Source: Rhynchopus sp. YZ270_cl-10 | Lineage: Eukaryota | Reading direction: 5' to 3' | DNA: 64,000 nucleotides | Assembly: GCA_964035575.1 (NCBI GenBank) | Contig: OZ037838.1 | Span: 1,426,001-1,490,000, forward strand | In this document: piece after piece, positions 4,249-64,000 of the stretch | Position numbering within the stretch: the stretch's first letter is position 1 | Layout of the letters: each line of letters opens with the position of its first letter | Made by a program: the position numbers and the translations under genes | Notes under the pieces: model-generated | Database searches by the model: none | Told to the model about the DNA's origin: nothing | The model's input: only the letters and a program-made list of their open reading frames with translations

Positions 4249-5360
4249 ATGGATGTGACCTTTGTGCTGGAAGAGTCAGGCGTGACTGCGACAGTGGAGG
4301 TGCCGTGCGAGGCGGACGTTGCAGCGGCAAAGGAGGTTGCGTGCACGGCGCTTGCTGTCTCGCCTGCGTCTGTCGAGATGCGCATCGGCACGCAGGTGCT
4401 GGAGGGACGTGCCGTCTGCAGGACACTGCGTTTGATTCAGGGGTGCAGGTTGTGCTTGCCCGCCGCTTTGCCGACATCAAGTGTCCTGCTGAGTACAGTG
4501 TAGAGGCGGCAACTGGCGGGCAAGGGAGGAACATACAACGTTTATCGCTGTCTCCTTGTGGAGCACTCTGCCTCTTTACACAGAAGACAGGCTACGTCAC
4601 CGGCCTCGATACAGAAATCTTCAGCCCTGCCTTCAGGTTCAAAGCAAGCATCGAGATGTGCGGTGCGCCTGCTGCCATCTCACGGTGCAAGACACGCTGC
4701 TACCTGGCGCGCAAGGAAGGTGTCCACGTGGTTGCGCTTCCGGGTGGGGAGGTGCTCCGCAAGGTTGACGGCCCCTCGTTCCAAGTGTTCGCGTGTGGCG
4801 GTGTTGTTGTCTCGAAGGGCATGGACAGCGTCTCTGTGTATGACGAAGACCTGACGTTGCTCCGCTTTCTCTCACACAAAGGGTGCAGGTGTGGGAGTGT
4901 GGCAGTGTCGGACTGTGGTGGATGGGTGATCACCTGCTCCAGAACAGAGCAGGACGCACGTCTGTGGGATGTGAACACAGGTGAAGCTGTGGCATGTGTA
5001 CTTGCTAATAGGAGTGCGGCGCTTTCACGATGTGCCTCTGTCTTTGCTGTGGTGCACTCTAAAAAAGTGCAGCTCTATGACTGGAGTGGTGCGGCTCTTG
5101 GCAACCTTAAAAGTGCGGATTATAGAGTTGCTAACCTGCAGTTCACTCCCTCCGGGAAGTATCTCGTAGTTCGGGTGATGGATACGGGTGCTAATGAAAT
5201 TTTTCTGCACCAGTATGATGTGACGACCATGTCCTGTGTGCGTGTGATACCGGACTCCGACGACTGCGGTACGTTTGCGATATCGCCGTGTTCACGTGTG
5301 GTATTGTTTGCGAACGAGGGACGAGACACCATTGTGACAAGACATCTGTACCCGTACTGA
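4249..5360 (+). pseudogene. Ubl + WD40-like propeller family copy 1, with a 1-bp frameshift (possible homopolymer error)
   Basis: Same ATG and sequence as the paralogues, but GGAGGGACG at 4401-4409 where the others have GGAGGGGACG. The rest is open to the conserved TRHLYPY-TGA. Confidence 0.8.
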
Positions 5361-5604
5361 GCGATGTTTTGCGAGAGGTTGTGTTTGTGCAGCTTCTCGC
5401 AGGCAGTCCACCCCAGAAGCACCTCCTCGCTGTCGCTGAGCAGTTGCAGCGTCTATCAGACTGAGTGCTGGCAGGGTCCCTATCTGAAATGCAACCCCTG
5501 TGAAAGACAACACCGACGCAGGAGCGTTTTATTGGAAACTGTTTTCTTCTCCGCCAACACAAAAACACTTGGCAGAAGCTTTTTTATACAACGTTTTTCC
5601 CCGT

Positions 5605-5775
5605 CACATATGATACTGTTTTCCATGGATACACATGCAATGGAGTTGTCGTGCTCACAGAACTCGATACGCGATGGTGACAACCAAAACAAAGAAAGTA
5701 CAATAAGAAACATACGAAATGCAGGGGGGAAAAAAATACAAAGATATTTTGACAAAAGGACAAAAAAATGTTTCT
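5605..5775 (+). repeat. Dispersed ~170-bp intergenic repeat
   Basis: ATGATACTG..CATGGATACACATG..GTGCTCACAGAACTCGATA..CAACCAAAACAAAGAAAG recurs at about 7646, 11201 and twice in 24970-25230. Confidence 0.75.
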
Positions 5776-5930
5776 CCTTTTCATAGTTTCTGCTTTCATT
5801 TTTCTCTGCCTCTTTCTAGCATTGATGAAGACACTGCAATATAAAAGGAACACACTCACCTCGCTCCACATATTTAATCCCCCTTCCACCGCCACCCCAA
5901 CTACCACATTGCAGTGTGTTGAATAAGAGA

Positions 5931-7079
5931 ATGGATGTGACCTTTGTGCTGGAAGAGTCAGGCGTGACTGCGACAGTGGAGGTGCCGTGCGAGGCGGACG
6001 TTGCAGCGGCAAAGGAGGTTGCGTGCACGGCGCTTGCTGTCTCGCCTGCGTCTGTCGAGATGCGCATCGGCACGCAGGTGCTGGAGGGGACGTGCCGTCT
6101 GCAGGACACTGCGTTTGATGCAGGGGTGCAGGTTGTGCTTGCCCGCCCTCGCTTTGCCGACATCAAGTGTCCTGCTGAGTACAGTATGGTAGAGGGGCTA
6201 CAGGGGATGGATTATCTTAGGCAGCGGTTGAGTGCACATTACCTGTCACTGTCTCCTTGTGGAGCACTCTGCCTCGTTTCACAGAATGGGCGAGATGGGC
6301 AAGATGCAGGCTATATCACCGGCCTCGATACAGAAACCATCAGCCCTGCCTTCAAGTTCAAAGTAGACTTTGATGTGTGCGGTGCGCCTGCCATCTCACG
6401 GTGCAAGACACGCTGCTACCTGGCGGGCAAAGAAGGTGTGCACGAGGTTGCGCTTCCTGGTGGGGAGGTGGTCCGCAAGGTTGATGGCCGCTCGTACTTC
6501 GTATTCGCGTGTGGCGGTGTTGTTGTCTCCCGTGGCGAAGACGGCGTCTCTGTGTATGACGAAGACCTGACGTTGCTCCACTTTCTCTCGCACAAAGGGT
6601 GCAGGGAGGTGGCTGTGTCTGACTGTGGTGGGTGGGTGATCACCTCCTCCAGCAGGGATGAGAATGCACGTCTGTGGGATGTGAACACAGGTGAAGCTGT
6701 GGCATGTGTGCCTGGTAGTAGGATGGTGGCGCTTTCACGGTCTGCCTCTGTCTTTGCTGTGGGGAGTTCTGACAAAGTGCAGCTTTATGACTGGAGTGGT
6801 GCGGCTCTTCGCAGTGTTGATGTGGATGCGGGCAGCGGGTACATGCAGTTCACACCGTGTGGGAAGTACCTTGTCATGGTAGGGGATTCGTCCGGTAACA
6901 GGTGTCTGCACCAGTATGATATGGCGACCATGTCCTGTGTGCGTGTAATATCTCAAGAGATACCGCACATCTCTAGTGCGGGGTTTGTGATATCACCGTG
7001 TTCACGTGTGGTTGTGTTTGTTTCATCCCGCAGGACCACTATTGCGACAAGACATCTGTACCCCCACAACAGTGAGTGA
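5931..7079 (+). CDS. Ubl + 7-bladed WD40-like propeller protein, copy 2 (382 aa)
   Basis: MDVTFVLEESGVTATVEV...LQDTAFDAGVQVVL aligns by eye to the ubiquitin beta-grasp pattern; WD-like blades such as AVSDCGGWVITSS...ARLWDVNTGEAV; ends HLYPHNSE. Confidence 0.92.
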   Translation: MDVTFVLEESGVTATVEVPCEADVAAAKEVACTALAVSPASVEMRIGTQVLEGTCRLQDTAFDAGVQVVLARPRFADIKCPAEYSMVEGLQGMDYLRQRLSAHYLSLSPCGALCLVSQNGRDGQDAGYITGLDTETISPAFKFKVDFDVCGAPAISRCKTRCYLAGKEGVHEVALPGGEVVRKVDGRSYFVFACGGVVVSRGEDGVSVYDEDLTLLHFLSHKGCREVAVSDCGGWVITSSSRDENARLWDVNTGEAVACVPGSRMVALSRSASVFAVGSSDKVQLYDWSGAALRSVDVDAGSGYMQFTPCGKYLVMVGDSSGNRCLHQYDMATMSCVRVISQEIPHISSAGFVISPCSRVVVFVSSRRTTIATRHLYPHNSE

Positions 7080-8080
7080 GTGCTAGATCACTGTTTTAGT
7101 ATTTTTATTATTATTACTGCCAACAGGCTCTGCTTTTGCTCGCGGCTTTTCTTTGATACGCTATCATGAACTAATTGTGAGAGAAAATTGTGGCTGATGT
7201 CCAGATAAAAGGCTAAATCCTATTTGCTATTTGGGTTTTCAGAGAGAAAATAATTTACCCACTTTCTTTGAAGGGGTTTATGAATAGATCTGGAGTGTGT
7301 TTTTTGACAGAGAGCTGAGCCAGTGGAATGGGATCACTTGAATCCGCACAAACGCGATTATGTAGTTTTTCAGCCACGAACTCACGTTACGCTCTATATT
7401 TTTGCCTGCTGCGCTCGCGGAGGTACACCTTAAAATTTTATTTGCTAAGTAAGAGAAAACCGAATGGAGTGGGAACGTTAGTGAGGGCGCAGCGAAACGA
7501 TAGTGGGAACGCAACGAGCTTTTTTCATAATGTTTTATTCTTCCCGCAAAAATATGACGCGCAGAGAAACACTCGTTTTTCACAGCGCGTCCGTTTGTTT
7601 GTTTTTCTCAAACGACACCTTTTTTTCAAAAAATTTCCCCGGTATCACATATGATACTGATTTCCATGGATACACATGAAACGGAGTTCCGTGCTATTCA
7701 CAGAACTCGATAGGCGATTGAGCTTATCTAACAACAACCAAAACAAAAGAAAGTACAAAGAAGAGAATAAAAAATGCGGGGAAAATAGGAAAAGAGAAAA
7801 ACAAAGAGATTTTGACAAAGTGAACAATAACATTTCAGTCAGTATTGCCTTGTAACACTGATGAAAAAAGATAGAAAACCATAGTGGAGCACACTCTCGG
7901 GTGGCTACACTAACACAACCAAGTTTTGAAGACAAAAAGTTTACCCAATACAATGGAACTAAATTCTAGCATTGATGAAGACACTGCAATATAAAAGGAA
8001 CACACTCACCTCGCTCCACATATTTAATCCCCCTTCCACCGCCACCCCAACTACCACATTGCAGTGTATTGAATAAGAGA

Positions 8081-9172
8081 ATGGATGTGACCTTTGTGCT
8101 GGAAGAGTCAGGCGTGACTGCGACAGTGGAGGTGCCGTGCGAGGCGGACGTTGCAGCGGCAAAGGAGGTTGCGTGCACGGCGCTTGCTGTCTCGTCTGCG
8201 TCTGTCGAGATGCGCATCGGCACGCAGGTGCTGGAGGGGACGTGCCGTCTGCAGGACACTGCGTTTGATTCAGGGGTGCAGGTTGTGCTTGCCCGCCCTC
8301 GCTTGGCCGACATCAAGTGTCCTGCTGAGTACAGAACTGGTAGGCAGCGGTTGACTGTACATTACCCGTCGTTGTCTCCTTGTGGAGCACTCTGCCTCTT
8401 TATACAGAATGCAGGCTACGTGACCGGCCTCGATACAGAAACCTTCAGCCCTGTCTTCAGGTTCAAAGTAGATATTGTGATGTGCGGTGCGCCTGCCATC
8501 TCACGGTGCAAGACACGCTGCTACCTGGCGGGCAAAGGAGGTATGCACGAGGTTGCGCTTCCGGTTGGGGAGGTGCTCCGGAAGGTTGATGGCCGCTCGT
8601 ACTTCGTATTCGCGTGTGGTGGTGTTGTTGTCTCCCGTGGCGAAGACGGCGTCTCTGTGTATGACGAAGACCTGACGTTGCTCCACTTTCTCTCACACGC
8701 AGGGTGCAGGGAGGTGGCTGTGTCTGACTGTGGTGGGTGGGTGATCACCTGCTCCCTCAGTGAGAAGAAGGCACGTCTGTGGGATGTGAACACAGGGGAA
8801 GGTGTGGCATGTGTGACTACGGAGGAGGGATACCTAGTGGCGCTTTCACGGTCTGCCTCTGTCTTTGCTGTGGGGAGTTCTGACAAAGTGCAGCTCTATG
8901 GCTGGAGTGGTGCGGCTCTTCGCAGTGTTGATGTGGATGGGGGCCTCGGGTACATTCAGTTCACACCGTGTGGGAAGTACCTTGTCATGGTAGGGGATTT
9001 GTCCGGTTACGAGTGTCTGCACCAGTATGATGTGGCGACCATGTCCTGTGTGCGTGTTATACCGGATATCTCTAGTGCGTGGTTTGTGATATCACCGTGT
9101 TCACGTGTGGTTGTGTTTGAGTCTTCCGCTGGCATTTTGACGAGACATCTGTACCCCCACAACGGTGAGTGA
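8081..9172 (+). CDS. Ubl-propeller family copy 3 (363 aa)
   Basis: Intact ORF; close sister of copy 2, including downstream DNA (7126-7380 resembles 9285-9545). Confidence 0.92.
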   Translation: MDVTFVLEESGVTATVEVPCEADVAAAKEVACTALAVSSASVEMRIGTQVLEGTCRLQDTAFDSGVQVVLARPRLADIKCPAEYRTGRQRLTVHYPSLSPCGALCLFIQNAGYVTGLDTETFSPVFRFKVDIVMCGAPAISRCKTRCYLAGKGGMHEVALPVGEVLRKVDGRSYFVFACGGVVVSRGEDGVSVYDEDLTLLHFLSHAGCREVAVSDCGGWVITCSLSEKKARLWDVNTGEGVACVTTEEGYLVALSRSASVFAVGSSDKVQLYGWSGAALRSVDVDGGLGYIQFTPCGKYLVMVGDLSGYECLHQYDVATMSCVRVIPDISSAWFVISPCSRVVVFESSAGILTRHLYPHNGE

Positions 9173-9959
9173 GTGTTATTGGTGTGGCTGAAAGGGGGTG
9201 CTATTTTGTGCTATTTTCTGCTACTTTCTGCTATTTTATGCTATTTTGGGGTCGTCAGCCACACCAGTTATGGTATCTTTATTACTGCCAAGAGGCTCTA
9301 CTTTTGCTCGCGGCTTTTCTTTGATACGCTAGCGCGAACTATTGTGAAAGAAAATTGTGGCTGATGTCCAGGTAAAAGGCTAAATCCTATTTACTATTTG
9401 GGTTTTCAGAGAGAAAATAATTTACCCACTTTCTTTGAAGGGGTTCATGAATAGATCTGGAGTGTGTTTTTTGACAGAGAGCTGAGCCAGTGGAATGGGA
9501 TTACTTGAATCCGCACAAACGCGATTATGTAGTTTTTTTTTCAGCCACGGTCAGCTCACACTTCAGACCACCTTCCACGCTGTCGAGAAATAAAAAGCAG
9601 CAAACCAAGAAGGCGAATTCATATTCGCCCCATATTCAGATCCCAAATTTCCTGGACCATATTCTTGGCTCCAATAGTGAATCTCATCCTCGGGGTGTCT
9701 GCACTAATCCAAACCAAAATTTTCAAAAACAAAGATAGAAAAACAAAACATTCGCCCAATACAATGGACCTAAAAGTTTACCCTCAACAATACAAACTGG
9801 GGTGTCCCCACCAAGTGTTCCTCTCTCCTTTTCTCTGCCTCTTTCTAGCATTGATGAAGACACTGCAATATAAAAGGAACACACTCACCTCGCTCCACAT
9901 ATCTAATCCCCCTCCCACCGCCACCCCAACTACCACATTGCAGTGTGTTGAATAAGAGA

Positions 9960-11057
9960 ATGGATGTGACCTTTGTGCTGGAAGAGTCAGGCGTGACTGC
10001 GACAGTGGAGGTGCCGTGCGAGGCGGACGTTGCAGCGGCAAAGGAGGTTGCGTGCACGGCGCTTGCTGTCTCGCCTGCGTCTGTCGAGATGCGCATCGGC
10101 ACGCAGGTGCTGGAGGGGACGTGCCGTCTGCAGGACACTGCGTTTGATGCAGGGGTGCAGGTTGTGCTTGCCCGCCGCTTTGCTGACATCAAGTGTCCTG
10201 CTGAGTACAGTGTAGGCGGGCCAACTGGTGGGCAGGAGAGGAAAATGAGGCACTTATCACTGTCTCCTTGTGGAGCACTCTGCCTCTTTGCACAGGAGGA
10301 AGGCTATGTCACCGGCCTCGATACAGTCATCTTCAGCGTCAAGTTCAAAGTAGACATTGAGGTGTATGGTATGCCTGCCATCTCACAGTGCAAGACACGC
10401 TGCTACCTGGCATGCAGGCAAGGTATACACGAGGTTGCGCTTCCGAGTGGGGAGGTGCTCCGCAAAGTCGACGTCCTCTCCTCTGCAGTGTTCGCGTGTG
10501 GCAGTGTTGTTGTCTCCCAGGGCACAGACGGCGTCTCTGTGTATGACGAAGACCTGACGTTGCTCCGCTCTCTCTCGCATGAAGGGTGTGCGGGCTTGGC
10601 AGTGTCGGACTGTGGTGGGTGGGCGATCAGCTCCTCCAGAACAGCGCAGAACGCACGTCTGTGGGATGTGAACACAGGTGAAGCTGTGGCATGTGTGCCT
10701 ACTAATAGGATGGTGGCGCTTTCACGGTCTGCCTCTGTCTTTGCTGTGGTGTGGTTTGACGAAGTGCGCCTCTTTGATTGGAGTGGTGCGGCTCTTGGTA
10801 ACCTTAAAAAGCCGTATCATATATTTGCTGGCCTGCAGTTCACTCCGTGTGGGAAGTATCTCGTAGTACGGTTGCTGGATATGTATGCTGATAAACATTT
10901 ACTGCACCAGTATGATGTGACGACCATGTCCTGCGTGCGTGTGATACCGGGCTCCTATGACTGCCGTGAGTTTGCGATATCGCCGTGTTCACGTGTGGTA
11001 TTGTTTGCGAACTCGGGACGAGACACTATTGAGACGAGACATCTGTACCCGTACTGA
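9960..11057 (+). CDS. Ubl-propeller family copy 4 (365 aa)
   Basis: Intact ORF with all conserved blocks; ends HLYPY. Confidence 0.92.
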   Translation: MDVTFVLEESGVTATVEVPCEADVAAAKEVACTALAVSPASVEMRIGTQVLEGTCRLQDTAFDAGVQVVLARRFADIKCPAEYSVGGPTGGQERKMRHLSLSPCGALCLFAQEEGYVTGLDTVIFSVKFKVDIEVYGMPAISQCKTRCYLACRQGIHEVALPSGEVLRKVDVLSSAVFACGSVVVSQGTDGVSVYDEDLTLLRSLSHEGCAGLAVSDCGGWAISSSRTAQNARLWDVNTGEAVACVPTNRMVALSRSASVFAVVWFDEVRLFDWSGAALGNLKKPYHIFAGLQFTPCGKYLVVRLLDMYADKHLLHQYDVTTMSCVRVIPGSYDCREFAISPCSRVVLFANSGRDTIETRHLYPY

Positions 11058-11519
11058 GTGATGTTTTGCGAGAGGTTGTGTTTTGTGCAGCTTCTCGCAG
11101 GCAGTCCACCCCAGAAGCACCTCCTCGCTGTCGCTGACCAGTTGCAGCGTCTATCAGACTGAGTGACAGGGTCCCTATCTGCAATGTAACCCCTGTGAAA
11201 ATGATACTGTTTTCCATGGATACTCATGCAAAAGGAGTTGTCGTGCTCACAGAACTCGATACGCGATGGTGACAACCAAAACAAAGAAATTACAATAAGA
11301 AACATACGAAACTCCAGAAAAACAAAACAAAGATATTTTGACAAAGGGACAATAAAACGTTTCTCCTTTTTTAAAAGTTTCTGCTTTCATTTTTCTCTGC
11401 CTCTTTCTAGCATTGATGAAGACTGCAACATAAAAGGAACACACTCACCTCGCTCCACATATTTAATCCCCCTTCCACCGCCACCCCAACTACCACATTG
11501 CAGTGTATTGAATAAGAGA

Positions 11520-12623
11520 ATGGATGTGACCTTTGTGCTGGAAGAGTCAGGCGTGACTGCGACAGTGGAGGTGCCGTGCGAGGCGGACGTTGCAGCGGCA
11601 AAGGAGGTTGCGTGCACGGCGCTTGCTGTCTCGCCTGCGTCTGTCGAGATGCGCATCGGCACGCAGGTGCTGGAGGGGACGTGCCGTCTGCAGGACACTG
11701 CGTTTGATGCAGGGGTACAGGTTGTGCTTGCCCGCCCTCGCTTTTCCGACATCAAGTGTCCTGCTGAGTACACTGCAACGCATGTGGGAAACCTGTCACT
11801 GTCTCCTTGTGGAACGCTCTGCGTCTATCACAACAGGAGTGCGCACGTTGGCGGCTTCGACACAGAAGCATTCATCACAGTCTTCTCGTTGGAACTGGAC
11901 GCATTCAAAGTGTTCAGTAGACCTTCCATCTCACGGTGCAAGACACGCTGCTACCTGGCGTGTTATCATTACCTTCTCGAGGTTGCGCTTCCGGGTGGGG
12001 AGGTGCTCCGCATAGTCGACAGCCCCTCGTTCCAAGTCTTTGCGCGTGGCGGTGCTGTTGTCTCCCGTGGCAAAGACGGCGTCTCTGTGTATGACGAAGA
12101 CCTGACGTTGCTCCGCACTATCTTGCACGAAGAGTGTACGGACATGGCAGTGTCGGACTGTGGTGGGTGGGTGATCACCTCCTCCAACAAGGAGAAGAAC
12201 GCACGTCTGTGGGATGTGAACACAGGTGAAGCTGTGGCATGTGTGCCTGCGGGTTGGTACTGTGCAGTGGCGCTTTCATGGTCTGCTTCTGTCTTTGCTG
12301 TGGAGGGGAAGAATGGCAAAGTGCAGCTCTATGACTGGAGTGGTGCGGCTCTTCGCAGTGTTGATACGGATAAAGAATTTGGGGGCATGCAGTTCACCCC
12401 GTGTGGGAAGTACCTAGTGGTCAAGGTTGACGATATGTTCGAGTCTACACTTTGCGAGGGACTGCACCAGTACGATGTGGCGACCATGTCCTGTGTGCGT
12501 GTGATCCCGGAAGCCCGGTATGGGTCCTTTGAGATATCACCGTGTTCACGTGTTGTTGTGTTTGAAGATGAAACAACAAACGTCATTGCAACAAGGCATC
12601 TGTATCCATACAACAGTGAGTGA
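11520..12623 (+). CDS. Ubl-propeller family copy 5 (367 aa)
   Basis: Start placed at the family ATG rather than the upstream ORF-track start; HVGGFDTE/HNSE subtype shared with copies 6 and 13. Confidence 0.92.
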   Translation: MDVTFVLEESGVTATVEVPCEADVAAAKEVACTALAVSPASVEMRIGTQVLEGTCRLQDTAFDAGVQVVLARPRFSDIKCPAEYTATHVGNLSLSPCGTLCVYHNRSAHVGGFDTEAFITVFSLELDAFKVFSRPSISRCKTRCYLACYHYLLEVALPGGEVLRIVDSPSFQVFARGGAVVSRGKDGVSVYDEDLTLLRTILHEECTDMAVSDCGGWVITSSNKEKNARLWDVNTGEAVACVPAGWYCAVALSWSASVFAVEGKNGKVQLYDWSGAALRSVDTDKEFGGMQFTPCGKYLVVKVDDMFESTLCEGLHQYDVATMSCVRVIPEARYGSFEISPCSRVVVFEDETTNVIATRHLYPYNSE

Positions 12624-12890
12624 TGTTTCGCGAGGGGTGGGAGGGTGGTGACTGTATTCTGACAGAAGGGGACAGTGCAAGTGTCTGCAGAGGGTATACC
12701 ATCAACTGCATAGGCCACACCGTCAATCTAGCTCAAGCTTACAGCTTTTCACACAAAAGTGCCGTTTTTTTTTGCATTTCCGAGCTGATCCCGGATTGTG
12801 ATGGGGTCATTTTGGAAAAATGGTCAACTGGAGGCCCCCAACTTGAGCTAAGGTGGGGACCCGGGAGCGCGAAGCGCGCCCGGGCTCGAC

Positions 12891-29857: not shown

Positions 29858-31247
29858 GGGTCCGTTTATAAACCCCCCCCCCTCACTCGTTCCAGACCAC
29901 TTTTTTTGAGTTCTACACAATTTGAGCCCCGACAGGTGCCCAGAACCCCCCTGGAATCGGTTTTGAGCGACTTTTGGCGGTGTTTTGGGGTAAAAAGACG
30001 CTTTTTTTGCTATTTTCAGGCTATTTTTGGCCATTTTCAGGCTATTTTGGCCTGTTTTGGCCTGTTTTCACTGTATGGCCGGGGTTTCGGGTTTTATGAG
30101 GTTTGAGCACCAACAGGTGTCACGAAACACCCCAGTACCGGTTTTGTGGGTCTCCTGTGGGGTTTTTGGGGTGAAATATACCTTTTGCTTGATGTTCTGG
30201 GCGATATTGGGGTGTTTTTTGGCCATGTAGGCCTGGTATGTGCCACTACAGTGCATGGGCCAAATTGGGTGTTTTGAGGGGTAGAGGGTCGTGGTGGTGG
30301 GTTCCTAACTCGCTGGCGGCGACGCTTATTGCTCACTGTTCTGGCCCCATTTCCCCCATTTCCCCCCTCCCTGACCCTTTTCTGATGAAGATCTTTGAAA
30401 TGCCGGGTCCTGTCGCAAATGTTCTTTGTGAACGTTCTTCATAGAATAGGGGAGTGTGAGGGGGGTCAAAATAGCCCTTTTTGACCAAAAAACACCAAGA
30501 AAAACACCAAGAAAAGTGCCACATGTGTCCAAAACAGATCGGAATGGGCTCACAGCCCCTTTTTGGGGTAGATTTGGGCCACAGGAAGCCTCCCGGCGTC
30601 AAAAAAATCGTGTTTTTTTGGTCAAAAAGGGCTATTTTGACCCCCCTCACACTCCCCTATTCTATGAAGAACGTTCACAAAGAACATTTGCGACAGGACC
30701 CGGCATTTCAAAGATCTTCATCAGAAAAGGGTCAGGGAGGGGGGAAATGGGGGAAATGGGGCCAGAACAGTGAGCAATAAGCGTCGCCGCCAGCGAGTTA
30801 GGAACCCACCACCACGACCCTCTACCCCTCAAAACACCCAATTTGGCCCATGCACTGTAGTGGCACATACCAGGCCTACATGGCCAAAAAACACCCCAAT
30901 ATCGCCCAGAACATCAAGCAAAAGGTATATTTCACCCCAAAAACCCCACAGGAGACCCACAAAACCGGTACTGGGGTGTTTCGTGACACCTGTTGGTGCT
31001 CAAACCTCATAAAACCCGAAACCCCGGCCATACAGTGAAAACAGGCCAAAACAGGCCAAAATAGCCTGAAAATGGCCAAAAATAGCCTGAAAATAGCAAA
31101 AAAAGCGTCTTTTTACCCCAAAACACCGCCAAAAGTCGCTCAAAACCGATTCCAGGGGGGTTCTGGGCACCTGTCGGGGCTCAAATTGTGTAGAACTCAA
31201 AAAAAGTGGTCTGGAACGAGTGAGGGGGGGGGTTTATAAACGGACCC
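29858..31247. mobile_element. 1.39-kb palindromic element with ~638-bp TIRs and ATAT TSD
   Basis: 29858-30495 is the reverse complement of 30610-31247 (mirror ORFs); termini GGGTCCG / CGGACCC; ATAT at 29854-57 and 31248-51. Confidence 0.93.
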
Positions 31248-37919: not shown

Positions 37920-40010
37920 ATGGATATGACCTTTGTGCTGGAAGAGTCAGGCGTGACTGCGACAGTGGAGGTGCCGTGCGAGGCGGACGTTGCAGCGGCA
38001 AAGGAGGTTGCGTGCACGGCGCTTGCTGTCTCGCCTGCGTCTGTCGAGATGCGCATCGGCACGCAGGTGCTGGAGGGGACGTGCCGTCTGCAGGACACTG
38101 CGTTTGATTCAGGGGTGCAGGTTGTGCTTGGCCGCCCTCGCTTGGCCGATATCAAGTGTCCTGCTGAGTACACTGCAGCGCGTGCCAGAGAGTTGTTGCT
38201 GTCGCGTTGTGGAACGCTCTGCATCTATGGTAACTGGAGTGGGCATGTTGGCGGTTTCGACACAGAAACCTTCGACACTGTCTTCTCGTTCAAAGTGGAC
38301 AAGCGAGTGGGCGGTCCACCTGCCATCTCGCAGTGCAAGACACGCTGCTACCTGGCGTGTTGGGAGGAAGGCCTTCTCAAGGTTGCGCTTCCTGGTGGGG
38401 AGGTGCTCCGCAAAGTCGACGGCTACTCGAGGTCTGTGTTCGCGTGTGGCGGTGTTGTTGTCTCCCGAGGCAACGACGGGGTCTCTGTGTATGACGAAGA
38501 CCTGACGTTGCTCCACACTCTATCACACAAAGGGTGCTACGACATCACAGTGTCGGACTGTGGTGGGTGGGTGATGACCTCCCTGAGTGCGGAGAAGGCA
38601 CGTCTGTGGGATGTGAACACAGGAGAAGCTGTGGTATGTATGACGGGGAAGACAACAGGTCGGATGGTGGCGCTTTCACGGTCTGCCTCAGTCTTTGCTG
38701 TGGGGGTGCGCAACACCGTGCACCTCTATGATTGGAATAGTGTGGCTCTTCGCAGTGTTGATGTGGCGAGGGCTGTACGGGGCATGCAGTTCACCCCGTG
38801 TGGGAAGTACTTTCTGGTAATGGTAGTTGCGGATGAAGATGATTATTGCGAGGAATGGGGTGAAGATACTTACGATTGGCCTGAGTACAATGTCCAGCTG
38901 CACCAGTATGATGTGGCGACAATGTCCTGTGTGCGTGTGTTGCCACCACAAAGCAGGCATGGGTCATTTGCGATATCGCCGTGTTCACGTGTTGTTGTGG
39001 CTATGCGACCAGATGGCATCATTGTGACAAAGCATCTGTACCCACACAACGTTGTTGAGGAGGACTTCTGGAAGAAGGACTCTGTCGTGGCACGCGACAT
39101 GCTCCTTCATGAGCACGGCATCGATGTTGCTTCTCCACTGCCTGCCTGCTCCTCTCCGTCAAACACATTTGAGTACCATCTTGTACGCATCCTCAAAAAC
39201 GACAACCCAGACCAGCTTGACCTGCTCCTCCGCAGCAAGCTGGACGGGAGTACAGGGGTGACTCTGCAGCGTGCAATGCAACGCGCAGCACACCGCTGCG
39301 TCGATGTGATGCTCGATGGGTTTGAACGTTCTCCAGACGATACTGCTTATGCATTGCGTAGCTCCGCATCGCACCGTTGGGGCCACGAGGACACACCAGG
39401 GAAGGTTCTGTGCGTGCTTCGTATTTTAAGACACTGCAGGGAGCAGGGTGTGGTGGTGGATCAGCCCCAGATACTGCAGGACACATTCAAGGGCCTGATA
39501 TCGAGCAGCGCAGCACACCCGAAGCTCTGCCAACTTCTCATGCGCATGGGTGCGGCAGTCACCCTCGATGTCATTCTCTCTGCACACGACGTGCATTTAT
39601 CGTTTCTTCAGTCCTGCGACATCGCTCCAGACATTCTCCTTACAGGGTGTCTTGCTGGATGGACGACACTCAGAAACCTTGTCGTTGTGCGAAGCCTTCA
39701 TGCCTCATCGTGCAAACGTGTTGACCCCGATGGTGACGGAGATGCAGAGTGGCCCTCTGTGATCGGTGCAAGCCGTGTGAACAGTGTTTTCTGTGGCAAC
39801 AGCGAAGGCCCGCTATGCGAGTCGCCCTGCGACCCAGGTTGCCGCTGCATCACCTGTTTGGATGAGGAGAGGTATACTGGGAGAAGGTGTCTGGGCGGTG
39901 GTGGTGGTGGTGGTTGGCGCAAGGCACCTGCAGTGGTCCGTGCACAGCGCAAGGCACGCATAGCACAGCAAATGAGCAGAGCTGCGCAGAGGTGCAGAAG
40001 GCAGCGGTAG
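37920..40010 (+). CDS. Ubl-propeller family copy 6 with a ~320-aa C-terminal extension (696 aa)
   Basis: Family sequence to HLYPHN, then continues in frame into helical, degenerate ankyrin-like repeats, a Cys-rich patch and a basic tail. Confidence 0.88.
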   Translation: MDMTFVLEESGVTATVEVPCEADVAAAKEVACTALAVSPASVEMRIGTQVLEGTCRLQDTAFDSGVQVVLGRPRLADIKCPAEYTAARARELLLSRCGTLCIYGNWSGHVGGFDTETFDTVFSFKVDKRVGGPPAISQCKTRCYLACWEEGLLKVALPGGEVLRKVDGYSRSVFACGGVVVSRGNDGVSVYDEDLTLLHTLSHKGCYDITVSDCGGWVMTSLSAEKARLWDVNTGEAVVCMTGKTTGRMVALSRSASVFAVGVRNTVHLYDWNSVALRSVDVARAVRGMQFTPCGKYFLVMVVADEDDYCEEWGEDTYDWPEYNVQLHQYDVATMSCVRVLPPQSRHGSFAISPCSRVVVAMRPDGIIVTKHLYPHNVVEEDFWKKDSVVARDMLLHEHGIDVASPLPACSSPSNTFEYHLVRILKNDNPDQLDLLLRSKLDGSTGVTLQRAMQRAAHRCVDVMLDGFERSPDDTAYALRSSASHRWGHEDTPGKVLCVLRILRHCREQGVVVDQPQILQDTFKGLISSSAAHPKLCQLLMRMGAAVTLDVILSAHDVHLSFLQSCDIAPDILLTGCLAGWTTLRNLVVVRSLHASSCKRVDPDGDGDAEWPSVIGASRVNSVFCGNSEGPLCESPCDPGCRCITCLDEERYTGRRCLGGGGGGGWRKAPAVVRAQRKARIAQQMSRAAQRCRRQR

Positions 40011-41189: not shown

Positions 41190-42305
41190 ATGATGGATGT
41201 GACCTTTGTGCTGGAAGAGTCAGGCGTGACTGCGACAGTGGAGGTGCCGTGCGAGGCGGACGCTGCAGCGGCAAAGGAGGTTGCGTGCACGGCGCTTGCT
41301 GTCTCGCCTGCGTCTGTCGAGATGCGCATCGGCACGCAGGTGCTGGAGGGGACGTGCCGTCTGCAGGACACTGCGTTTGATGCAGGGGTGCAGGTTGTGC
41401 TTGCCCGCCGCTTTGCCGACATCAAGTGTCCTGCTGAGTACAGTGTCGAGGCGGCAACTGGTGGGCAAGGGAGGAACATACAATGTTTATCGCTGTCTCC
41501 TTGTGGAGCACTCTGCCTCTTTGCACAGACGCCACATAAGTCAGGGTATATCACCGGCCTCGATACAGAAACCCTCAGCCCTGCCTTCAAGTTCAAAGTA
41601 GACATTGAGGTGTGGGGTGCGCCTGCCATCTCGCAGTGCAAGACACGCTGCTACCTGGCGTGCTGGGAAGGTGTCCACGAGGTTGCTCTTCCTGGTGGGG
41701 AGGTTCTCCGCAAGGTTGACGGCACCTCGTACCTCGTATTCGCGTGTGGCGGTGTTGTTATCTCCCGTGGCGAAGGTAGCGTCTCTGTGTATGACGAAGA
41801 CCTGACGTTGCTCCGCACTCTCTCACACACAGGGTGTAGCAGTGTGGCAATGTCTGACTGTGGTGGGTGGGTGATCACCTCCTCCTACAGTGAGAAGAAC
41901 GCACGTCTGTGGGATGTGAACACAGGTGAAGCTGTGGCATGTGTGCCTGCGGATGGGTGGAACCCCGCGCTGTCACTACCTGCCTCTGTCTTTGCTGTGG
42001 AGTGCTCTAACGAAGTGCAGCTCTATGACTGGAGTGGTGCGGCTCTTGGCAGCTTTGAAAAGGAGCAGTCTAGCGTCTGTGCCGTGCAGTTCACTCCGTG
42101 TGGGAAGTACGTCGTTATTGAGTTTAATTTTGGTGAAGAGCACACTCTGCACCAGTATGATGTGGCGACCATGTCCTGTGTACGTGTGATACAGGACAGC
42201 AATGGTGTATTTGCGATATCGCCGTGTTCACGTGTGGTTGTGTTCAAGGCAGCAGGTGACGCAGGAAGTATCGCCCTTGTGACACAACATCTGTACCCCT
42301 ACTGA
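41190..42305 (+). CDS. Ubl-propeller family copy 7 (371 aa; family ATG at 41193)
   Basis: Intact ORF with conserved blocks. Confidence 0.92.
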   Translation: MMDVTFVLEESGVTATVEVPCEADAAAAKEVACTALAVSPASVEMRIGTQVLEGTCRLQDTAFDAGVQVVLARRFADIKCPAEYSVEAATGGQGRNIQCLSLSPCGALCLFAQTPHKSGYITGLDTETLSPAFKFKVDIEVWGAPAISQCKTRCYLACWEGVHEVALPGGEVLRKVDGTSYLVFACGGVVISRGEGSVSVYDEDLTLLRTLSHTGCSSVAMSDCGGWVITSSYSEKNARLWDVNTGEAVACVPADGWNPALSLPASVFAVECSNEVQLYDWSGAALGSFEKEQSSVCAVQFTPCGKYVVIEFNFGEEHTLHQYDVATMSCVRVIQDSNGVFAISPCSRVVVFKAAGDAGSIALVTQHLYPY

Positions 42306-49562: not shown

Positions 49563-50669
49563 ATGGATGTGACCTTTGTGCTGGAAGAGTCAGGCATGAC
49601 TGCGACAGTGGAGGTGCCGTGCGAGGCGGACGTTGCAGCGGCAAAGGAGGTTGCGTGCACGGCGCTTGCTGTCTCGCCTGCGTCTGTCGAGATGCGCATC
49701 GGCACGCAGGTGCTGGAGGGGACGTGCCGTCTGCAGGACACTGCGTTTGATGCAGGGGTGCAGGTTGTGCTTGCCCGCCCTCGCTTGGCCGACATCAAGT
49801 GTCCTGCTGAGTACAGTCTAGAGGCGCCACCTGGTAGACCGGGGCTGGATATAATTCGTTTTTCCCTGTCTCCTTGTGGAGCACTCTGCCTCTTTACACA
49901 GAAGGCACGCTATGTCACCGGCCTCGATGCAGAAACCTTCAGCCTTGCCTTCAGGTTCAAAGTTGACATTGATGTGTGCGGTCCGCCTGCCATCTCACGG
50001 TGCAAGACACGCTGTTACCTGGCGAGTATGGAAGGCCTTCTCAAAGTTGCTCTTCCGGGTGGGGAGGTGCTCCGCCAAGTTAACGGCATCTCGACGTCGG
50101 TGTTCGCGTGTGGCAGTGTTGTTGTCTCCCAGCGCATAGACGGTGTCTCTGTGTATGACAAAGACCTGACGTTGCTCCGCACTCTCTCGCATAAACAGTG
50201 CGCGGACTTGGCAGTATCGGACTGTGGTGGGTGGGTGATCACCTCCTCCGGAACAAAGAAGAGCGCACGTCTGTGGGATGTGAACACAGGTGAAGCTGTG
50301 GCATGTGTGCCTGCTAGTGGGATCGTGGCGCTTTCACGATGTGCTTCTGTCTTTGCTGTGGTGTGCTCTCAGAAAGTGCAGCTCTATGACTGGAGTGGTG
50401 CGGCTCTTGGCAGCTTTGATAAGGCGAGGCATTTATTTGTTCACCTGCAGTTCACTCCCTCCGGGAAGTATCTCGTAGTGCAGATGATGGATAGGGCTGC
50501 TGAAAAATATTTACTGCACCAGTATGATTTAGCCACCATGTCCTGTGTACGTGTGATATCGGACTTCAATGACTACTGTACGTTTACGATATCACCGTGT
50601 TCACGTGTGGTACTCTTTACGAACAGGAGACGATACACTATTGAGACGAGACATCTGTACCCCTACTGA
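49563..50669 (+). CDS. Ubl-propeller family copy 10 (368 aa)
   Basis: Intact ORF. Confidence 0.92.
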   Translation: MDVTFVLEESGMTATVEVPCEADVAAAKEVACTALAVSPASVEMRIGTQVLEGTCRLQDTAFDAGVQVVLARPRLADIKCPAEYSLEAPPGRPGLDIIRFSLSPCGALCLFTQKARYVTGLDAETFSLAFRFKVDIDVCGPPAISRCKTRCYLASMEGLLKVALPGGEVLRQVNGISTSVFACGSVVVSQRIDGVSVYDKDLTLLRTLSHKQCADLAVSDCGGWVITSSGTKKSARLWDVNTGEAVACVPASGIVALSRCASVFAVVCSQKVQLYDWSGAALGSFDKARHLFVHLQFTPSGKYLVVQMMDRAAEKYLLHQYDLATMSCVRVISDFNDYCTFTISPCSRVVLFTNRRRYTIETRHLYPY

Positions 50670-59387: not shown

Positions 59388-60497
59388 ATGGATGTGACCT
59401 TTGTGCTGGAAGAGTCAGGCGTGACTGCGACAGTGGAGGTGCCGTGCGAGGCGAACGTTGCAGCGGCAAAGGAGGTTGCGTGCACGGCGCTTGCTGTCTC
59501 GCCTGCGTCTGTCGAGATGCGCATCGGCACGCAGGTGCTGGAGGGGACGTGCCGTCTGCAGGACACTGCGTTTGATGCAGGGGTGCAGGTTGTGCTTGCC
59601 TGCCCTCGCTTTGCCGACATCAAGTGTCCTGCTGAGTACAGTGCAGCGGTGCCTCGGCAGGGGATGCATATGACTCGCTTTTCGCTGTCTCCTTGTGGAG
59701 CACTCTGCCTCTTGGTGCAGAATGCACGCTGCGTCACCGGCTTCGATACAGAAACCTTCAGCCCTGCCTTCAGGTTCAAAGTAGACAGTTTCGTGTACCG
59801 TGCCCCTGCCGTCTCACGGTGCAAGACACGCTGCTACCTGGCGTGCGAGGAAGGCCTACACGAGGTTGCGCTTCCGGGTGGGGAGGTGCTCCGTAAAGTC
59901 GACGGCGACTCAAGGTCAGTGTGCGCGTGTGGTGGTGTTGTTGTCTCAAAGGGCACAGACGGCGTCTCTGTGTATGACGAAGACCTGACGTTGCTCCGCT
60001 CTCTCTCGCACGAACGGTGTCCGGACATAGCAGTGTCGGACTGTGGTGGGTGGGTGATCACCTCCTCCGAAGCAGAGAAGAACGCACGTCTGTGGTATGT
60101 GAACACAGGTGAAGCTGTGGCATGTGTGCCTGCTAATAAGATCGTGGCGCTTTCACGGTCTGCCTCTGTCTTTGCTGTGGTGTGCTCTCAGAAAGTGCAG
60201 CTCTATGACTGGAGTGGTGCGGCTCTTGGCAGCTTTGAATTATCAAATCTCATGCCTGGATTTCCCGCTGGCATGCAGTTCACTCCGTGTGGGAAGTATC
60301 TCGTAGTACGGTTCATGGATATGGGTACTGAAACATATTTACTGCACCAGTATGATGTGACGACCATGTCCTGTGTGCGTGTGATACCAGACTGCGACGG
60401 GTGTCGTGATTTTGCGATATCGCCGTGTTCACGTGTGGTAGTGTTTGCGAACTCGGGACGAGGTACTATTGAGACGAGACATCTGTACCCCTACTGA
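59388..60497 (+). CDS. Ubl-propeller family copy 14 (369 aa)
   Basis: Intact ORF from the family ATG. Confidence 0.92.
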   Translation: MDVTFVLEESGVTATVEVPCEANVAAAKEVACTALAVSPASVEMRIGTQVLEGTCRLQDTAFDAGVQVVLACPRFADIKCPAEYSAAVPRQGMHMTRFSLSPCGALCLLVQNARCVTGFDTETFSPAFRFKVDSFVYRAPAVSRCKTRCYLACEEGLHEVALPGGEVLRKVDGDSRSVCACGGVVVSKGTDGVSVYDEDLTLLRSLSHERCPDIAVSDCGGWVITSSEAEKNARLWYVNTGEAVACVPANKIVALSRSASVFAVVCSQKVQLYDWSGAALGSFELSNLMPGFPAGMQFTPCGKYLVVRFMDMGTETYLLHQYDVTTMSCVRVIPDCDGCRDFAISPCSRVVVFANSGRGTIETRHLYPY

Positions 60498-61052: not shown

Positions 61053-62183
61053 ATGGATGTGACCTTTGTGCTGGAAGAGTCAGGCGTGACTGCGACAGTG
61101 GAGGTGCCGTGCGAGGCGGACGTTGCAGCGGCAAAGGAGGTTGCGTGCACGGCGCTTGCTGTCTCGCCTGCGTCTGTCGAGATGCGCATCGGCACGCAGG
61201 TGCTGGAGGGGACGTGCCGTCTGCAGGACACTGCGTTTGGTGCAGGGGTGCAGGTTGTGCTTGCCTGTCCTCGCTTTGCCGACATCAAGTGTCCTGCTGA
61301 GTACGCTGTACCACCTCGCATGGAACCTATTACGGGTAGGCAGCGGATGAATCTGTATTACTTTTCGTTGTCTCCTTGTGGAGCACTCTGCCTCTTTACA
61401 CAGAATGCAGGTTATGTGACCGGCCTTGATACAGAAACCTTCAGCCCTGCCTTCAGATTCAAAGTAGACTTTGAGGTGCGCGGTGCGCCTGCCATCTCAC
61501 GGTGCAAGACACGCTGCTACCTAGTGTGCAAGGAAGAAGGTCTGCACGAGGTTGCGCTTCCGGGTGGGGAGGTGCTACGCAAAGTTAACGGCACCTCGCA
61601 GTCAGTGTTTGCGTGTGGTGGTGTTGTTGTCTCGAAGGGCAAAGATGGCGTCTCTGTGTATGACGAAGACCTGACGTTGCTCCACACTCTCTCGAACGAA
61701 GGGTTTTTGGCCTTGGCAGTATCGGACTGTGGTGGGTGGGTGCTCACCTCCTCCAAATCAGAGAAGGACGCACGTCTGTGGGATGTGAACACAGGTGAAG
61801 CTGTGGCATGTGTGCCTGCAGAGGGGTGGTCTAGCGTGGTGCTTTCACGATCTGCCTCTGTCTTTGCTGTGGTATGCATGGATAAAATGCAGCTCTACAA
61901 CTGGAGTGGTGCGGCTATTCGCATATTTAAAAAGGCGCATCAGTTATTTGCTGGCGTGCAGTTCACTCCGTGTGGGAAGTATCTCGTAGTACGGGTGATG
62001 GATATGGATGCTGGCAAACAACATTTACTGCACCAGTATGATGTGGCGACCATGTCCTGTGTGCGTGAGATACCGGACTCCGACAGCTGCGAAGGGTTTG
62101 CGATATCGCCGTGTTCACGTGTGGTACTATTTGCGAATACGAGACGAAACACTTTTGAGACGAAACATCTGTACCCCTACTGA
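61053..62183 (+). CDS. Ubl-propeller family copy 15 (376 aa)
   Basis: Intact ORF. Confidence 0.92.
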   Translation: MDVTFVLEESGVTATVEVPCEADVAAAKEVACTALAVSPASVEMRIGTQVLEGTCRLQDTAFGAGVQVVLACPRFADIKCPAEYAVPPRMEPITGRQRMNLYYFSLSPCGALCLFTQNAGYVTGLDTETFSPAFRFKVDFEVRGAPAISRCKTRCYLVCKEEGLHEVALPGGEVLRKVNGTSQSVFACGGVVVSKGKDGVSVYDEDLTLLHTLSNEGFLALAVSDCGGWVLTSSKSEKDARLWDVNTGEAVACVPAEGWSSVVLSRSASVFAVVCMDKMQLYNWSGAAIRIFKKAHQLFAGVQFTPCGKYLVVRVMDMDAGKQHLLHQYDVATMSCVREIPDSDSCEGFAISPCSRVVLFANTRRNTFETKHLYPY

Positions 62184-62506
62184 GTGATGTTTTGCGAGAG
62201 GTTGTGTTTGTGCAGCTTCTCGCAGGCAGTCCACCCCAGAAGCACCTCCTCGCTGTCGCTGAGTACTGCACTGTTCTGCTGTAGTGAGACCACCGACGGG
62301 ATACTCATTATTTTTTCCCGGGGACATGACACTTGAGACATATCGATATATATCGTTGGAAATATTTTAGTAAATGCGAAGACGATTCTTGTGCTCCTCA
62401 CTTCTCCCCCACACTATGTCAATACAACAGGTTAGAGCGTTTGTCACATCGCATACACAACCTTGCAGAACACGACACCCGCTGCCTCTAACGAAGACAC
62501 AAAACA

Positions 62507-63622
62507 ATGGATGTGACCTTTGTGCTGGAAGAGTCAGGCGTGACTGCGACAGTGGAGGTGCCGTGCGAGGCGGACGTTGCAGCGGCAAAGGAGGTTGCGT
62601 GCACGGCGCTTGCTGTCTCGCCTGCGTCTGTCGAGATGCGCATCGGCACGCAGGTGCTGGAGGGGACGTGCCGTCTGCAGGACACTGCGTTTGATGCAGG
62701 GGTGCAGGTTGTGCTTGCCTGTCCTCGCTTTGCCGACATCAAGTGTCCTGCTGAGTACAGTGTAGATGCGCCATCTGGTGGGCAGGGGATGAATATTAAT
62801 TACTTTTCGCTGTCTCCTTGTGGAGCACTCTGCCTCTTTACACAGGAGGAACGCAACGTCGCCGGCCTCGATACAGAAACCTTCAGCCCTGCCTTCACGT
62901 TCAAAGTAGACTTTGCGGTGTGCAGTGTACCTGCCATCTCACGGTGCAAGACACGCTGCTACCTGGCGAGTAGGAATTGTCTTGCGGAGGTTTCGCTTCC
63001 GGGTGGGGAGGTGCTCCGCAAAGTTGACGGCCGCTCGTACGCAGTGTACGCGTGTGGTGGTGTTGTCTCCTGTGGCGAACAAGGAAGCGTCTCTGTGTAT
63101 GACGAAGACCTGACGTTGCTCCGCTTGCGCCCTCACATCTGGTACCTAGGTGGTATGATGGCAGTGTCTGGCTGTGGTGGGTGGGTGATCACCTCCTCCC
63201 TCAGCGATGAGAAGGCACGTCTGTGGGATGTGAACACAGGTGAAGCTGTGGTATGTGTGCCTGCGGATGGGAGGCCGGTGGCTTTTTCACTGCCTGCCTC
63301 GCTCTTTGCTGTGGTATGCTCTGACAAAGTGCAGCTCTATGACTGGAGTGGTGTGGCTCTTCGCAGCTTTGAAAAAAAAGGTTATATTTTAGTTTGCATG
63401 CGATTCACACCATGTGGGAAGTACCTCGTAGGAATGTTTTTGGATGGTTATGGGTTTGCTGAATATTCACTGCACCAGTATGATGTGGCAACCATGTCCT
63501 GTGTGCGTGTGATCACTGATGTAGACTGTCGCTCGTTTGCGATATCGCCGTGTTTACGTGTGGTATTGTTTATGAGCTCGGTATGCGAAAGCATTGTGAT
63601 GAGGCATCTGTACCCCTACTGA
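62507..63622 (+). CDS. Ubl-propeller family copy 16 (371 aa)
   Basis: Intact ORF. Confidence 0.92.
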   Translation: MDVTFVLEESGVTATVEVPCEADVAAAKEVACTALAVSPASVEMRIGTQVLEGTCRLQDTAFDAGVQVVLACPRFADIKCPAEYSVDAPSGGQGMNINYFSLSPCGALCLFTQEERNVAGLDTETFSPAFTFKVDFAVCSVPAISRCKTRCYLASRNCLAEVSLPGGEVLRKVDGRSYAVYACGGVVSCGEQGSVSVYDEDLTLLRLRPHIWYLGGMMAVSGCGGWVITSSLSDEKARLWDVNTGEAVVCVPADGRPVAFSLPASLFAVVCSDKVQLYDWSGVALRSFEKKGYILVCMRFTPCGKYLVGMFLDGYGFAEYSLHQYDVATMSCVRVITDVDCRSFAISPCLRVVLFMSSVCESIVMRHLYPY

Positions 63623-63954
63623 GTGATGTTTTGCGAGAGGTTGTGTTTATTCAGCTTCTCGCAGGTAGTCCACCCCAGAAGCACCTCCTCGCTGTCGCTG
63701 AGTACTGCGGTGTGTTGCTATCGTGCGTTGCATCAGTATTTGCGTTGCACCCTCGACCTACTAGCCTGTGAGGGAATTCACTTTGAGGATAACGACCACA
63801 CCACCCTTTACCCCACTCTTACTTTTGCTTTGTTCAAACCCTCTTCTGTTGGTGGAAACTACCGACACAACTAAAACATCACAAACACACAAAACAAAAC
63901 AACCCACACCTCATCTCCTTCCTAACAGAGCTGGAACAAGAAGAAGACAAAACA

Positions 63955-64000
63955 ATGGATGTGACCTTTGTGCTGGAAGAGTCAGGCGTGACTGCGACAG
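63955..64000 (+). CDS. Ubl-propeller family copy 17, 5' end only (runs off the window)
   Basis: ATGGATGTGACCTTTGTGCTGGAAGAGTCAGGC is identical to the family start. Confidence 0.9.
   Translation, partial: MDVTFVLEESGVTAT

What the first reader, a model, noticed from the sequence alone, without database searches (positions are those of the whole stretch)
4249..64000. Ubl-WD40 array with a constant domain and hypervariable top-face loops: candidate diversified receptor repertoire
Seen: 17 co-oriented paralogues in which near-invariant blocks (LSPCGALCL, AISRCKTRCYL, VALPGGEVLRKV, VSVYDEDLTLL, SDCGGWVI, ARLWDVNTGEAV, YDWSGAA, QFTPCGKY, HQYDVATMSCVR, ISPCSRV, TRHLYP) alternate with about 14 short segments that differ in almost every copy, often in length. 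Established: in WD40 propellers the D-A and B-C loops form the top face that binds ligands. Mapping blade 4 (SH-xxxxx-AVSDCGGWVITSS-xxxx-ARLWD) puts the variable segments at D-A and B-C, and the same holds by eye for all 7 blades. Inference: a fixed ubiquitin-like docking module coupled to a diversifying recognition surface, i.e. an immune-like family of substrate adaptors (proteasome, p97 or cullin linked) in a protist. It is analogous to fungal HNWD or expanded F-box families, but I do not recognise this architecture as described.
Basis: partly seen in the sequence, partly recalled or inferred. Interest (0 to 1): 0.88.

Follow-up and report, generated by a model that had tools for sequence, protein, structure and literature searches.

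The report
Ubiquitin-like propeller repertoire, one face diversifying
Seventeen same-strand gene copies encode a near-identical, likely ubiquitin-like domain joined to a predicted seven-bladed propeller whose variation is confined to one face, likely a large set of intracellular recognition proteins being diversified by selection in a single-celled eukaryote.

Summary
There are 17 co-oriented paralogues in two clusters: 15 intact, 1 frameshifted, 1 cut by the window end. The C-terminal part is a confidently predicted seven-bladed propeller. All 14 variable segments are its D-A and B-C loops; all 77 positions above 2 bits lie on that face, none on the other. Codon models give omega 1.8-2.1 in top loops and 0.45 on the bottom; the signal shrinks but survives the strictest model (p 1e-4). 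At least 120 close relatives exist on 12 contig lengths. The N-domain is ubiquitin-like by profile, not by structure prediction. Two corrections. Its constancy extends to silent sites (0.8% against 16-20%) and starts abruptly at the ATG, so gene conversion, not protein constraint alone, likely explains it. It lacks the Ile44 patch and di-glycine, and there is no F-box or WDxR motif, so the proteasome/cullin link is unsupported. Blades look shuffled between copies. Ubl-propeller order is known (Ytm1, Rsa4); a diversified repertoire of it was not found in eight searches. Ligands, partner and expression are untested.

The parts
4249..5360 (+). copy 1, one-base frameshift near 4403-4406 (pseudogene or assembly error, unresolved); no other stop
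5931..7079 (+). copy 2, 382 aa
8081..9172 (+). copy 3, 363 aa
9960..11057 (+). copy 4, 365 aa
11520..12623 (+). copy 5, 367 aa from the shared ATG
37920..40010 (+). copy 6, 696 aa: Ubl + propeller + about 320-aa tail shared with P0122, P0123, P0125; tail has no Pfam hit
41193..42305 (+). copy 7, 370 aa
42945..44057 (+). copy 8, 370 aa
48036..49133 (+). copy 9, 365 aa; in-frame deletions in blade 4, possibly damaged
49563..50669 (+). copy 10, 368 aa
52331..53431 (+). copy 11, 366 aa
55409..56533 (+). copy 12, 374 aa
57257..58381 (+). copy 13, 374 aa
59388..60497 (+). copy 14, 369 aa (P0001, the modelled reference)
59388..59603 (+). ubiquitin-like N-domain of the reference (residues 1-72), homogenised at silent sites
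59631..60482 (+). seven-bladed propeller of the reference (residues 82-365, closed by an N-terminal strand at 82-85)
61053..62183 (+). copy 15, 376 aa
62507..63622 (+). copy 16, 371 aa
63955..64000 (+). copy 17, first 15 codons, cut by the window end

Best explanation
This is a family of at least 120 genes, each encoding a likely ubiquitin-like domain fused to a predicted seven-bladed propeller whose top face is under diversifying selection, and it likely works as a repertoire of intracellular binders for foreign or fast-changing molecules. Shown by calls: the fold of the propeller (model), the one-face variability, omega above 1 on top and below 1 on the bottom, silent-site homogenisation of the N-domain. 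Inferred: each copy binds a different ligand on its top face; gene conversion keeps the N-domain uniform within an array and swaps blade-sized pieces between copies, so that selected loop variants are recombined; the Ubl serves as a common handle that recruits one shared downstream partner through a surface other than the ubiquitin Ile44 patch; the proteins are cytosolic (the Ubl starts at Met1 and no signal peptide or membrane segment is visible by eye). The pressure is most likely conflict with viruses, intracellular bacteria or prey-derived proteins; which one is untested.
For: Propeller: pLDDT mostly 88-97 over residues 101-369; VIA Z 28.5, rmsd 2.7, 278 aligned to a G-beta chain. Face asymmetry: 77 of 77 hypervariable positions on top. 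Codon models with a separate rate per partition, 15 copies, 330 gap-free codons: top loops omega 1.83 (p 9e-6), bottom 0.46; 2.08 with multi-nucleotide changes allowed; 0 of 40 neutral simulations with loops shuffled among copies reached 1.83, maximum 1.42; M2a over M1a on the top face p 4e-22 with multi-nucleotide changes, p 1e-4 when site-to-site rate variation is added. Four-fold silent divergence is similar on both faces (0.16 bottom, 0.19-0.20 top), against targeted hypermutation. 15 ORFs have no premature stop where about 25 would be expected under neutrality, and their 45 gap blocks are in frame. Ubl: relatives P0233 and P0210 (full-length hits, E 2e-30 and 6e-34) match Pfam ubiquitin (best E 3e-4) and Rad60-SLD; a profile of 8 N-domains ranks ubiquitin-fold chains in 59 of the best 60 PDB hits, best single-domain E 0.0016, without gaps. 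Conversion: N-domain silent divergence 0.008; identity jumps from about 0.36 to 0.99 at the ATG, with six unrelated 5' flank groups; N-domain variants sort by contig (Fst-like 0.56) while propellers barely do (0.02-0.04); distances between blades decorrelate beyond neighbours (0.19 adjacent, 0.01-0.07 at 2-5 blades, control 0.24).
Against: No ligand, partner, localisation or expression data. The selection signal drops from 2dl 168 to 18 under the strictest model; pairwise NG86 gives omega only 1.08 over the 14 segments because silent differences there are also high (dS 0.63); the single-nucleotide count in 7 disjoint pairs gives 1.53, p 0.07; top strand halves average omega 1.0. N-domain omega is 1.46, not different from 1, so purifying selection on the 'handle' is not shown within the window. 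The N-domain folds poorly (pLDDT 43) and its model found no ubiquitin match; window copies alone have no Pfam ubiquitin hit. Recombination tests are modest (incompatibility test p 0.033; 10 of 105 pairs with long identical tracts, which uneven rates can mimic). Two of 16 complete copies are damaged or doubtful.
Confidence: 0.6

Rival explanations
1. Same repertoire, but specifically a set of ubiquitin-proteasome substrate adaptors: the Ubl docks on the proteasome, p97 or a cullin and delivers bound targets for degradation.
For: Ubiquitin itself is the closest solved fold family of the N-domain; expanded F-box families show the same constant-N, selected-C pattern (PMC8665587 passages); a sister family carries B-box zinc fingers, a Ubl and LRRs.
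Against: In the gapless register ubiquitin Leu8 and Ile44 face Glu9 and Arg45 (97 of 98 each), and Val70 falls on Ala71 by extension; that patch is the usual receptor contact (established knowledge). No di-glycine after the domain, WDxR in 0 of 120, no F-box, BTB, UBA or UBX Pfam hit.
Confidence: 0.2
2. Neutral patchwork: loops are merely unconstrained, and frequent gene conversion keeps long conserved stretches identical while indels shield loops from conversion, so that they drift apart.
For: N-domain and the 221-240 block are homogenised at silent sites; NG86 omega about 1 in loops; the neutral rate estimated for top loops is 2.6 times that of the bottom.
Against: Bottom loops are equally exposed yet conserved (0.33 bits, omega 0.40); omega above 1 persists in all likelihood tests; four-fold divergence is nearly flat across the propeller.
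Confidence: 0.1
3. Offensive or self-recognition role rather than defence: effectors delivered into prey or host, or allorecognition/mating determinants; or the Ubl is only a folding or turnover tag with no shared partner.
For: Top-face selection in a WD propeller underlies fungal allorecognition (PMC1805685 passages); the sequence pattern cannot tell who is being recognised; N-domain constraint is unproven.
Against: No signal peptide or membrane segment seen by eye; hundreds of coexisting paralogues fit broad surveillance better than one self/non-self locus (inference).
Confidence: 0.1

Closest known systems
Podospora HET-D/HET-E (HNWD/NWD family; PMC1805685, passages read)
   Same: WD propeller with positive selection in the D-A loop and B-C turn on the top face, combined with concerted evolution
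   Different: No NACHT or HET domain; 10 genes there, 120 or more here; there the repeats inside a gene are near-identical, here the seven blades differ and homogenisation is between whole-gene copies; all 14 loops vary, also in length, against 4 positions per repeat
Zebrafish NLR-B30.2 family (PMC4852459, passages read)
   Same: Hundreds of clustered genes; one domain homogenised by gene conversion (low dS), the recognition domain positively selected and shuffled
   Different: Different domains; multi-exon there, single ORF here
Caenorhabditis F-box expansions (PMC8665587, passages read)
   Same: Tandem birth-and-death family, conserved N-terminal adaptor, selected C-terminal binding domain, proposed to recognise foreign proteins
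   Different: No F-box here; no cullin link shown
Ytm1/WDR12 and Rsa4/NLE1 (PMC6920918, passages read; Rsa4's propeller and single-copy status recalled)
   Same: Domain order Ubl then WD propeller; Ubl used as a handle by an AAA ATPase (Rea1/Midasin MIDAS), a precedent for a non-proteasomal handle
   Different: Conserved ribosome-assembly factors, not expanded or diversified; no NLE-family match here
Tetrahymena species-specific LRR/WD40/TPR genes (PMC6564038, passages read)
   Same: Large young repeat-domain families in a protist, compared with plant immune genes
   Different: Exon-array LRRs reported mostly under purifying selection; no Ubl fusion in the passages seen

Membership tests
Seven-bladed WD40-like beta-propeller | Seven four-stranded blades closed by an N-terminal strand | tested here: met
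   Model strands; Foldseek E 3e-16 to G-beta; VIA Z 28.5, rmsd 2.7, 278 aligned
Seven-bladed WD40-like beta-propeller | Canonical WD40 repeats above Pfam's cut-off | tested here: not met
   Best PF00400 20.4 bits against cut-off 27 in 8 window copies scanned; only blade 4 matches: a degenerate WD40
Ubiquitin-like (beta-grasp) domain | Sequence-profile homology to ubiquitin | tested here: met
   Profile A4: best single-domain PDB E 0.0016, 59 of best 60 hits ubiquitin-fold; 2 of 8 members hit PF00240 below the curated cut-off; link to window copy 27% over 70 aa without gaps. Moderate, transitive support
Ubiquitin-like (beta-grasp) domain | Beta-grasp fold in a confident model | tested here: inconclusive
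   pLDDT 43 from a shallow alignment; best VIA Z 5.2
Conjugatable ubiquitin or ubiquitin fusion | C-terminal di-glycine after the domain | tested here: not met
   RGG in 0 of 120 at residues 55-95; none visible in alignment
UBL proteasome shuttle (Rad23/Dsk2 type) | Leu8/Ile44/Val70-type hydrophobic patch and a UBA domain (recalled definition) | tested here: not met
   Glu9, Arg45, Ala71 in register (counts); no UBA hit
Cullin adaptor (F-box-WD40 or DCAF) | F-box domain, or WDxR motif (recalled definition) | tested here: not met
   No F-box Pfam hit; WDxR 0 of 120, [WY]DxR 2 of 120
Rsa4/NLE1 or Ytm1/WDR12 | Ubl followed by WD propeller | tested here: met
Rsa4/NLE1 or Ytm1/WDR12 | NLE-type Ubl sequence family; one conserved gene | tested here: not met
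   No such Pfam match at E up to 1 in 8 N-domains or up to 10 in 2; 120 or more copies
Rsa4/NLE1 or Ytm1/WDR12 | Acidic residue binding the Midasin MIDAS domain | not tested
   No alignment to these proteins was made
Fungal HNWD/NWD | NACHT NTPase domain | tested here: not met
   No room in 370 aa and no Pfam hit
Fungal HNWD/NWD | Positive selection on D-A and B-C loops | tested here: met
Immune receptor repertoire (functional class) | Binding of non-self ligands and a defence output | not testable with these tools
   No ligand or phenotype data

The most novel reading that the evidence does not exclude
A protist innate recognition system built on a common ubiquitin-like handle: several massively expanded scaffolds (this propeller family and a B-box/Ubl/BspA-LRR family with three hypervariable positions per repeat, sharing a contig with it) generate antibody-like binding surfaces by selection plus blade shuffling, and feed captured foreign proteins to one shared machine through a non-Ile44 Ubl surface.
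Probability: 0.3. Interest if true: 0.88.

Novelty: new variant of a known kind. Interest (0 to 1): 0.7.

Why it matters
Diversified intracellular receptor repertoires are well described in plants, animals and fungi, far less in free-living protists. Here a 370-aa, intron-free scaffold with 14 variable loops on one face and a uniform handle gives a directly testable system: one pull-down with the constant domain should name the effector pathway, and single copies can be screened for viral or bacterial ligands. It is also a natural library of propeller binders and a clean case of conversion and selection acting on different parts of one exon.

Tried and rejected
No whole genome is held, so no genome-wide count and DNA for only the window's copies. 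No RNA holder listed; runs X1-X5 are contigs that cover spacers as well as genes and say nothing on expression. The frameshift in copy 1 could not be settled, since paralogues supply the same reads. No relatives in viral or metagenome contigs, PADLOC or NCBIfam. Single-sequence PDB and Pfam searches with the window N-domain found nothing useful. The N-domain model (pLDDT 43) listed no ubiquitin chain; uninformative. Atlas look-alikes were ubiquitin clusters at 0.76, a lead only (one search gave an unnamed cluster). Profile comparison with the sister family's Ubl was weak (P 0.02, 1 of 60 shuffles as high). The neutral simulation was invalid (optimiser did not move) and was redone; the other outputs stand. 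Targeted hypermutation of loops rejected: four-fold divergence is nearly flat. Three look-ups of earlier findings returned nothing. The organism was not identified; the Diplonema papillatum genome paper, read as a guess, has no main-text mention of WD40, ubiquitin or propeller (supplements not read).
Full report
Observation. tblastn with one copy and a start-motif scan find 17 copies on the + strand: 15 intact, one frameshifted (4249) and one cut by the window end (63955). They form two clusters, 4249-12623 and 37920-64000, 25.3 kb apart. Each gene is a single ORF of about 370 codons. A protein search returned 417 hits among 4641 candidates; only the best 120 are listed, all 67-81% identical apart from the query itself. 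By my labels 79 of 120 share the window's contig length and 41 lie on 11 other contig lengths. The 297 unlisted hits may include generic WD40 proteins, so 120 is the floor. That these contigs belong to one assembly is an inference. A profile search of 1.84 billion representatives adds diverged full-length relatives down to E 1e-30 (P0210, P0223, P0233), those checked all unnamed ENA records; the remaining hits are long generic WD40-repeat proteins matching only the middle blades. The organism is a eukaryote by inference; its lineage was not determined.

Structure. An alignment of 98 of the 120 hits (22 with long extensions, truncations or fusions left out) gave a model with pLDDT mostly 88-97 over the propeller and 37-63 over residues 1-70. 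It is a seven-bladed propeller (Foldseek E 3e-16; VIA Z 28.5, rmsd 2.7, 278 aligned), degenerate by Pfam WD40 score. Classifying residues by the model's strands, the 14 D-A and B-C loops average 2.53 bits and the 13 A-B and C-D loops 0.33; all 77 positions above 2 bits are on the top face; indels are almost all in top loops.

Selection. On 15 of 17 copies and 330 of 433 codon columns without gaps, with a separate rate for each structural class: top loops omega 1.83 (p 9e-6), top strand halves 1.08, bottom 0.46 (p 2e-9), N-domain 1.46 (not significant) (rechecked). Allowing multi-nucleotide changes gives 2.08. Neutral data simulated with each loop shuffled among copies never reached 1.83 (0 of 40, maximum 1.42). 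Site models on the top face: 2dl 168, 99 with multi-nucleotide changes (about 38% of sites at omega 3.6), and 18 (p 1e-4, omega about 2) when rates also vary among codons. Weaker results: NG86 gives 1.08 over the 14 segments and single-nucleotide counts in 7 disjoint pairs 1.53, p 0.07. Four-fold sites diverge 0.16 on the bottom and 0.19-0.20 on top, which argues against loop-targeted mutation. No premature stop in 15 ORFs against about 25 expected, and 45 in-frame gap blocks, indicate translated genes, though the two broken or cut copies were not in that count. These are my own implementations with a fixed tree, not PAML.

The constant domain. Window copies alone match nothing. Diverged relatives do: 2 of 8 N-domains hit Pfam ubiquitin and Rad60-SLD below the curated cut-offs, and their joint profile ranks ubiquitin-fold chains in 59 of the best 60 PDB hits, gapless over profile 8-70 to ubiquitin 7-69, best single-domain E 0.0016 (polyubiquitin E-values are inflated by repeats). 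Structure prediction of the domain failed. In that register Leu8 and Ile44 correspond to Glu9 and Arg45 (97 of 98 each), and there is no di-glycine, WDxR or F-box, so ordinary proteasome-receptor or cullin docking is unlikely. The domain is also constant in DNA: four-fold divergence 0.008, twenty times below the propeller. Identity rises from about 0.36 to 0.99 at the ATG, and the 17 upstream flanks fall into six unrelated groups. N-domain variants sort by contig (Fst-like 0.56) and propellers hardly do (pairs are dominated by one contig). This is the pattern of local gene conversion. Conversion needs lasting similarity, which suggests but does not show protein constraint; conserved core residues across 26-43% identical relatives are fold-level evidence only.

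Shuffling. Pairwise distances correlate between adjacent blades (0.19) but not at 2-5 blades (0.01-0.07), against 0.24 for random column sets; nearby sites are more compatible than distant ones (p 0.033); 10 of 105 pairs share tracts of 34-76 nt longer than in any of 1000 permutations. Each test is modest; together they suggest mosaic propellers.

Mechanism. Most likely a cytosolic binder repertoire in a biological conflict: diversified top face, conserved bottom and core, uniform Ubl handle for a shared but non-canonical partner (0.6). Proteasome or cullin adaptor (0.2), neutral patchwork (0.1) and effector, allorecognition or tag roles (0.1) are the rivals. A second family supports a general design: a domain fused upstream in one predicted protein (P0126) led to 34 further proteins with B-box zinc fingers, a Ubl-like domain (weak FERM_N and ubiquitin hits) and mostly BspA LRRs, whose 121 repeat units are hypervariable at three positions (3.6-3.7 bits). 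It shares a contig length with propeller copies; its Ubl is only weakly related to this one and no DNA was available for selection tests.

Comparison with what is known. It works like fungal HNWD (top-face selection plus concerted evolution; PMC1805685), zebrafish NLR-B30.2 (converted constant domain, selected variable domain; PMC4852459) and nematode F-box expansions (PMC8665587), but is a member of none. Ubl plus propeller occurs in Ytm1 and Rsa4, where the Ubl binds the Midasin MIDAS domain (PMC6920918). For these four papers, PMC6564038 and PMC10161547 I read keyword passages only, no supplements. Eight library searches (listings only) showed no description of an expanded, diversified Ubl-propeller family; the library lacks most subscription papers and genome-paper supplements may list it. 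Verdict: real, well supported as a positively selected one-face repertoire, function inferred; new variant of a known kind; interest 0.7.

Noticed in passing
P0134-P0167, contig lengths 798917, 1300354, 803324: Second expanded family: zinc finger/B-box, putative coiled coil, Ubl-like domain, BspA-type LRRs with three hypervariable positions per repeat; TRIM-like without a RING hit.
   Followed up: partly
P0126, P0121: Predicted proteins that join a B-box/Ubl unit, or a second full copy, to a Ubl-propeller; the linkers resemble translated 5' flank, so they may be gene-model joins.
   Followed up: no
window:39057-40010: About 320-aa tail of copy 6, nearly identical in P0122, P0123, P0125, no Pfam hit; helical repeat-like by eye. 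Defines a long subfamily.
   Followed up: partly
window:15489-17529 and 29871-31235: Two perfect long inverted repeats (arms 1006 nt and 622 nt, 100% complementary): foldback elements or assembly artefacts.
   Followed up: no
window:44061-46547: Unrelated 828-aa ORF with a PDZ domain (Pfam 23.6 bits, above cut-off) starting 4 nt after copy 8; its first codons are the family's shared 3' flank.
   Followed up: partly
window:17996-19345: 449-aa low-complexity ORF in the spacer, no Pfam hit.
   Followed up: no
about 90 nt after the stop of most copies, e.g. window:42306-42400: Conserved 3' flank that by eye resembles a decayed extra blade in some copies.
   Followed up: no
reference residues 221-240 (blade 4): A second silent-site-homogenised patch (four-fold divergence 0.004) inside the propeller; blade 4 distances correlate with the N-domain (0.33).
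   Followed up: partly
window:40568-40738 and 731-816: Perfect minisatellites (9 nt x 19; 8 nt x 10.8).
   Followed up: no
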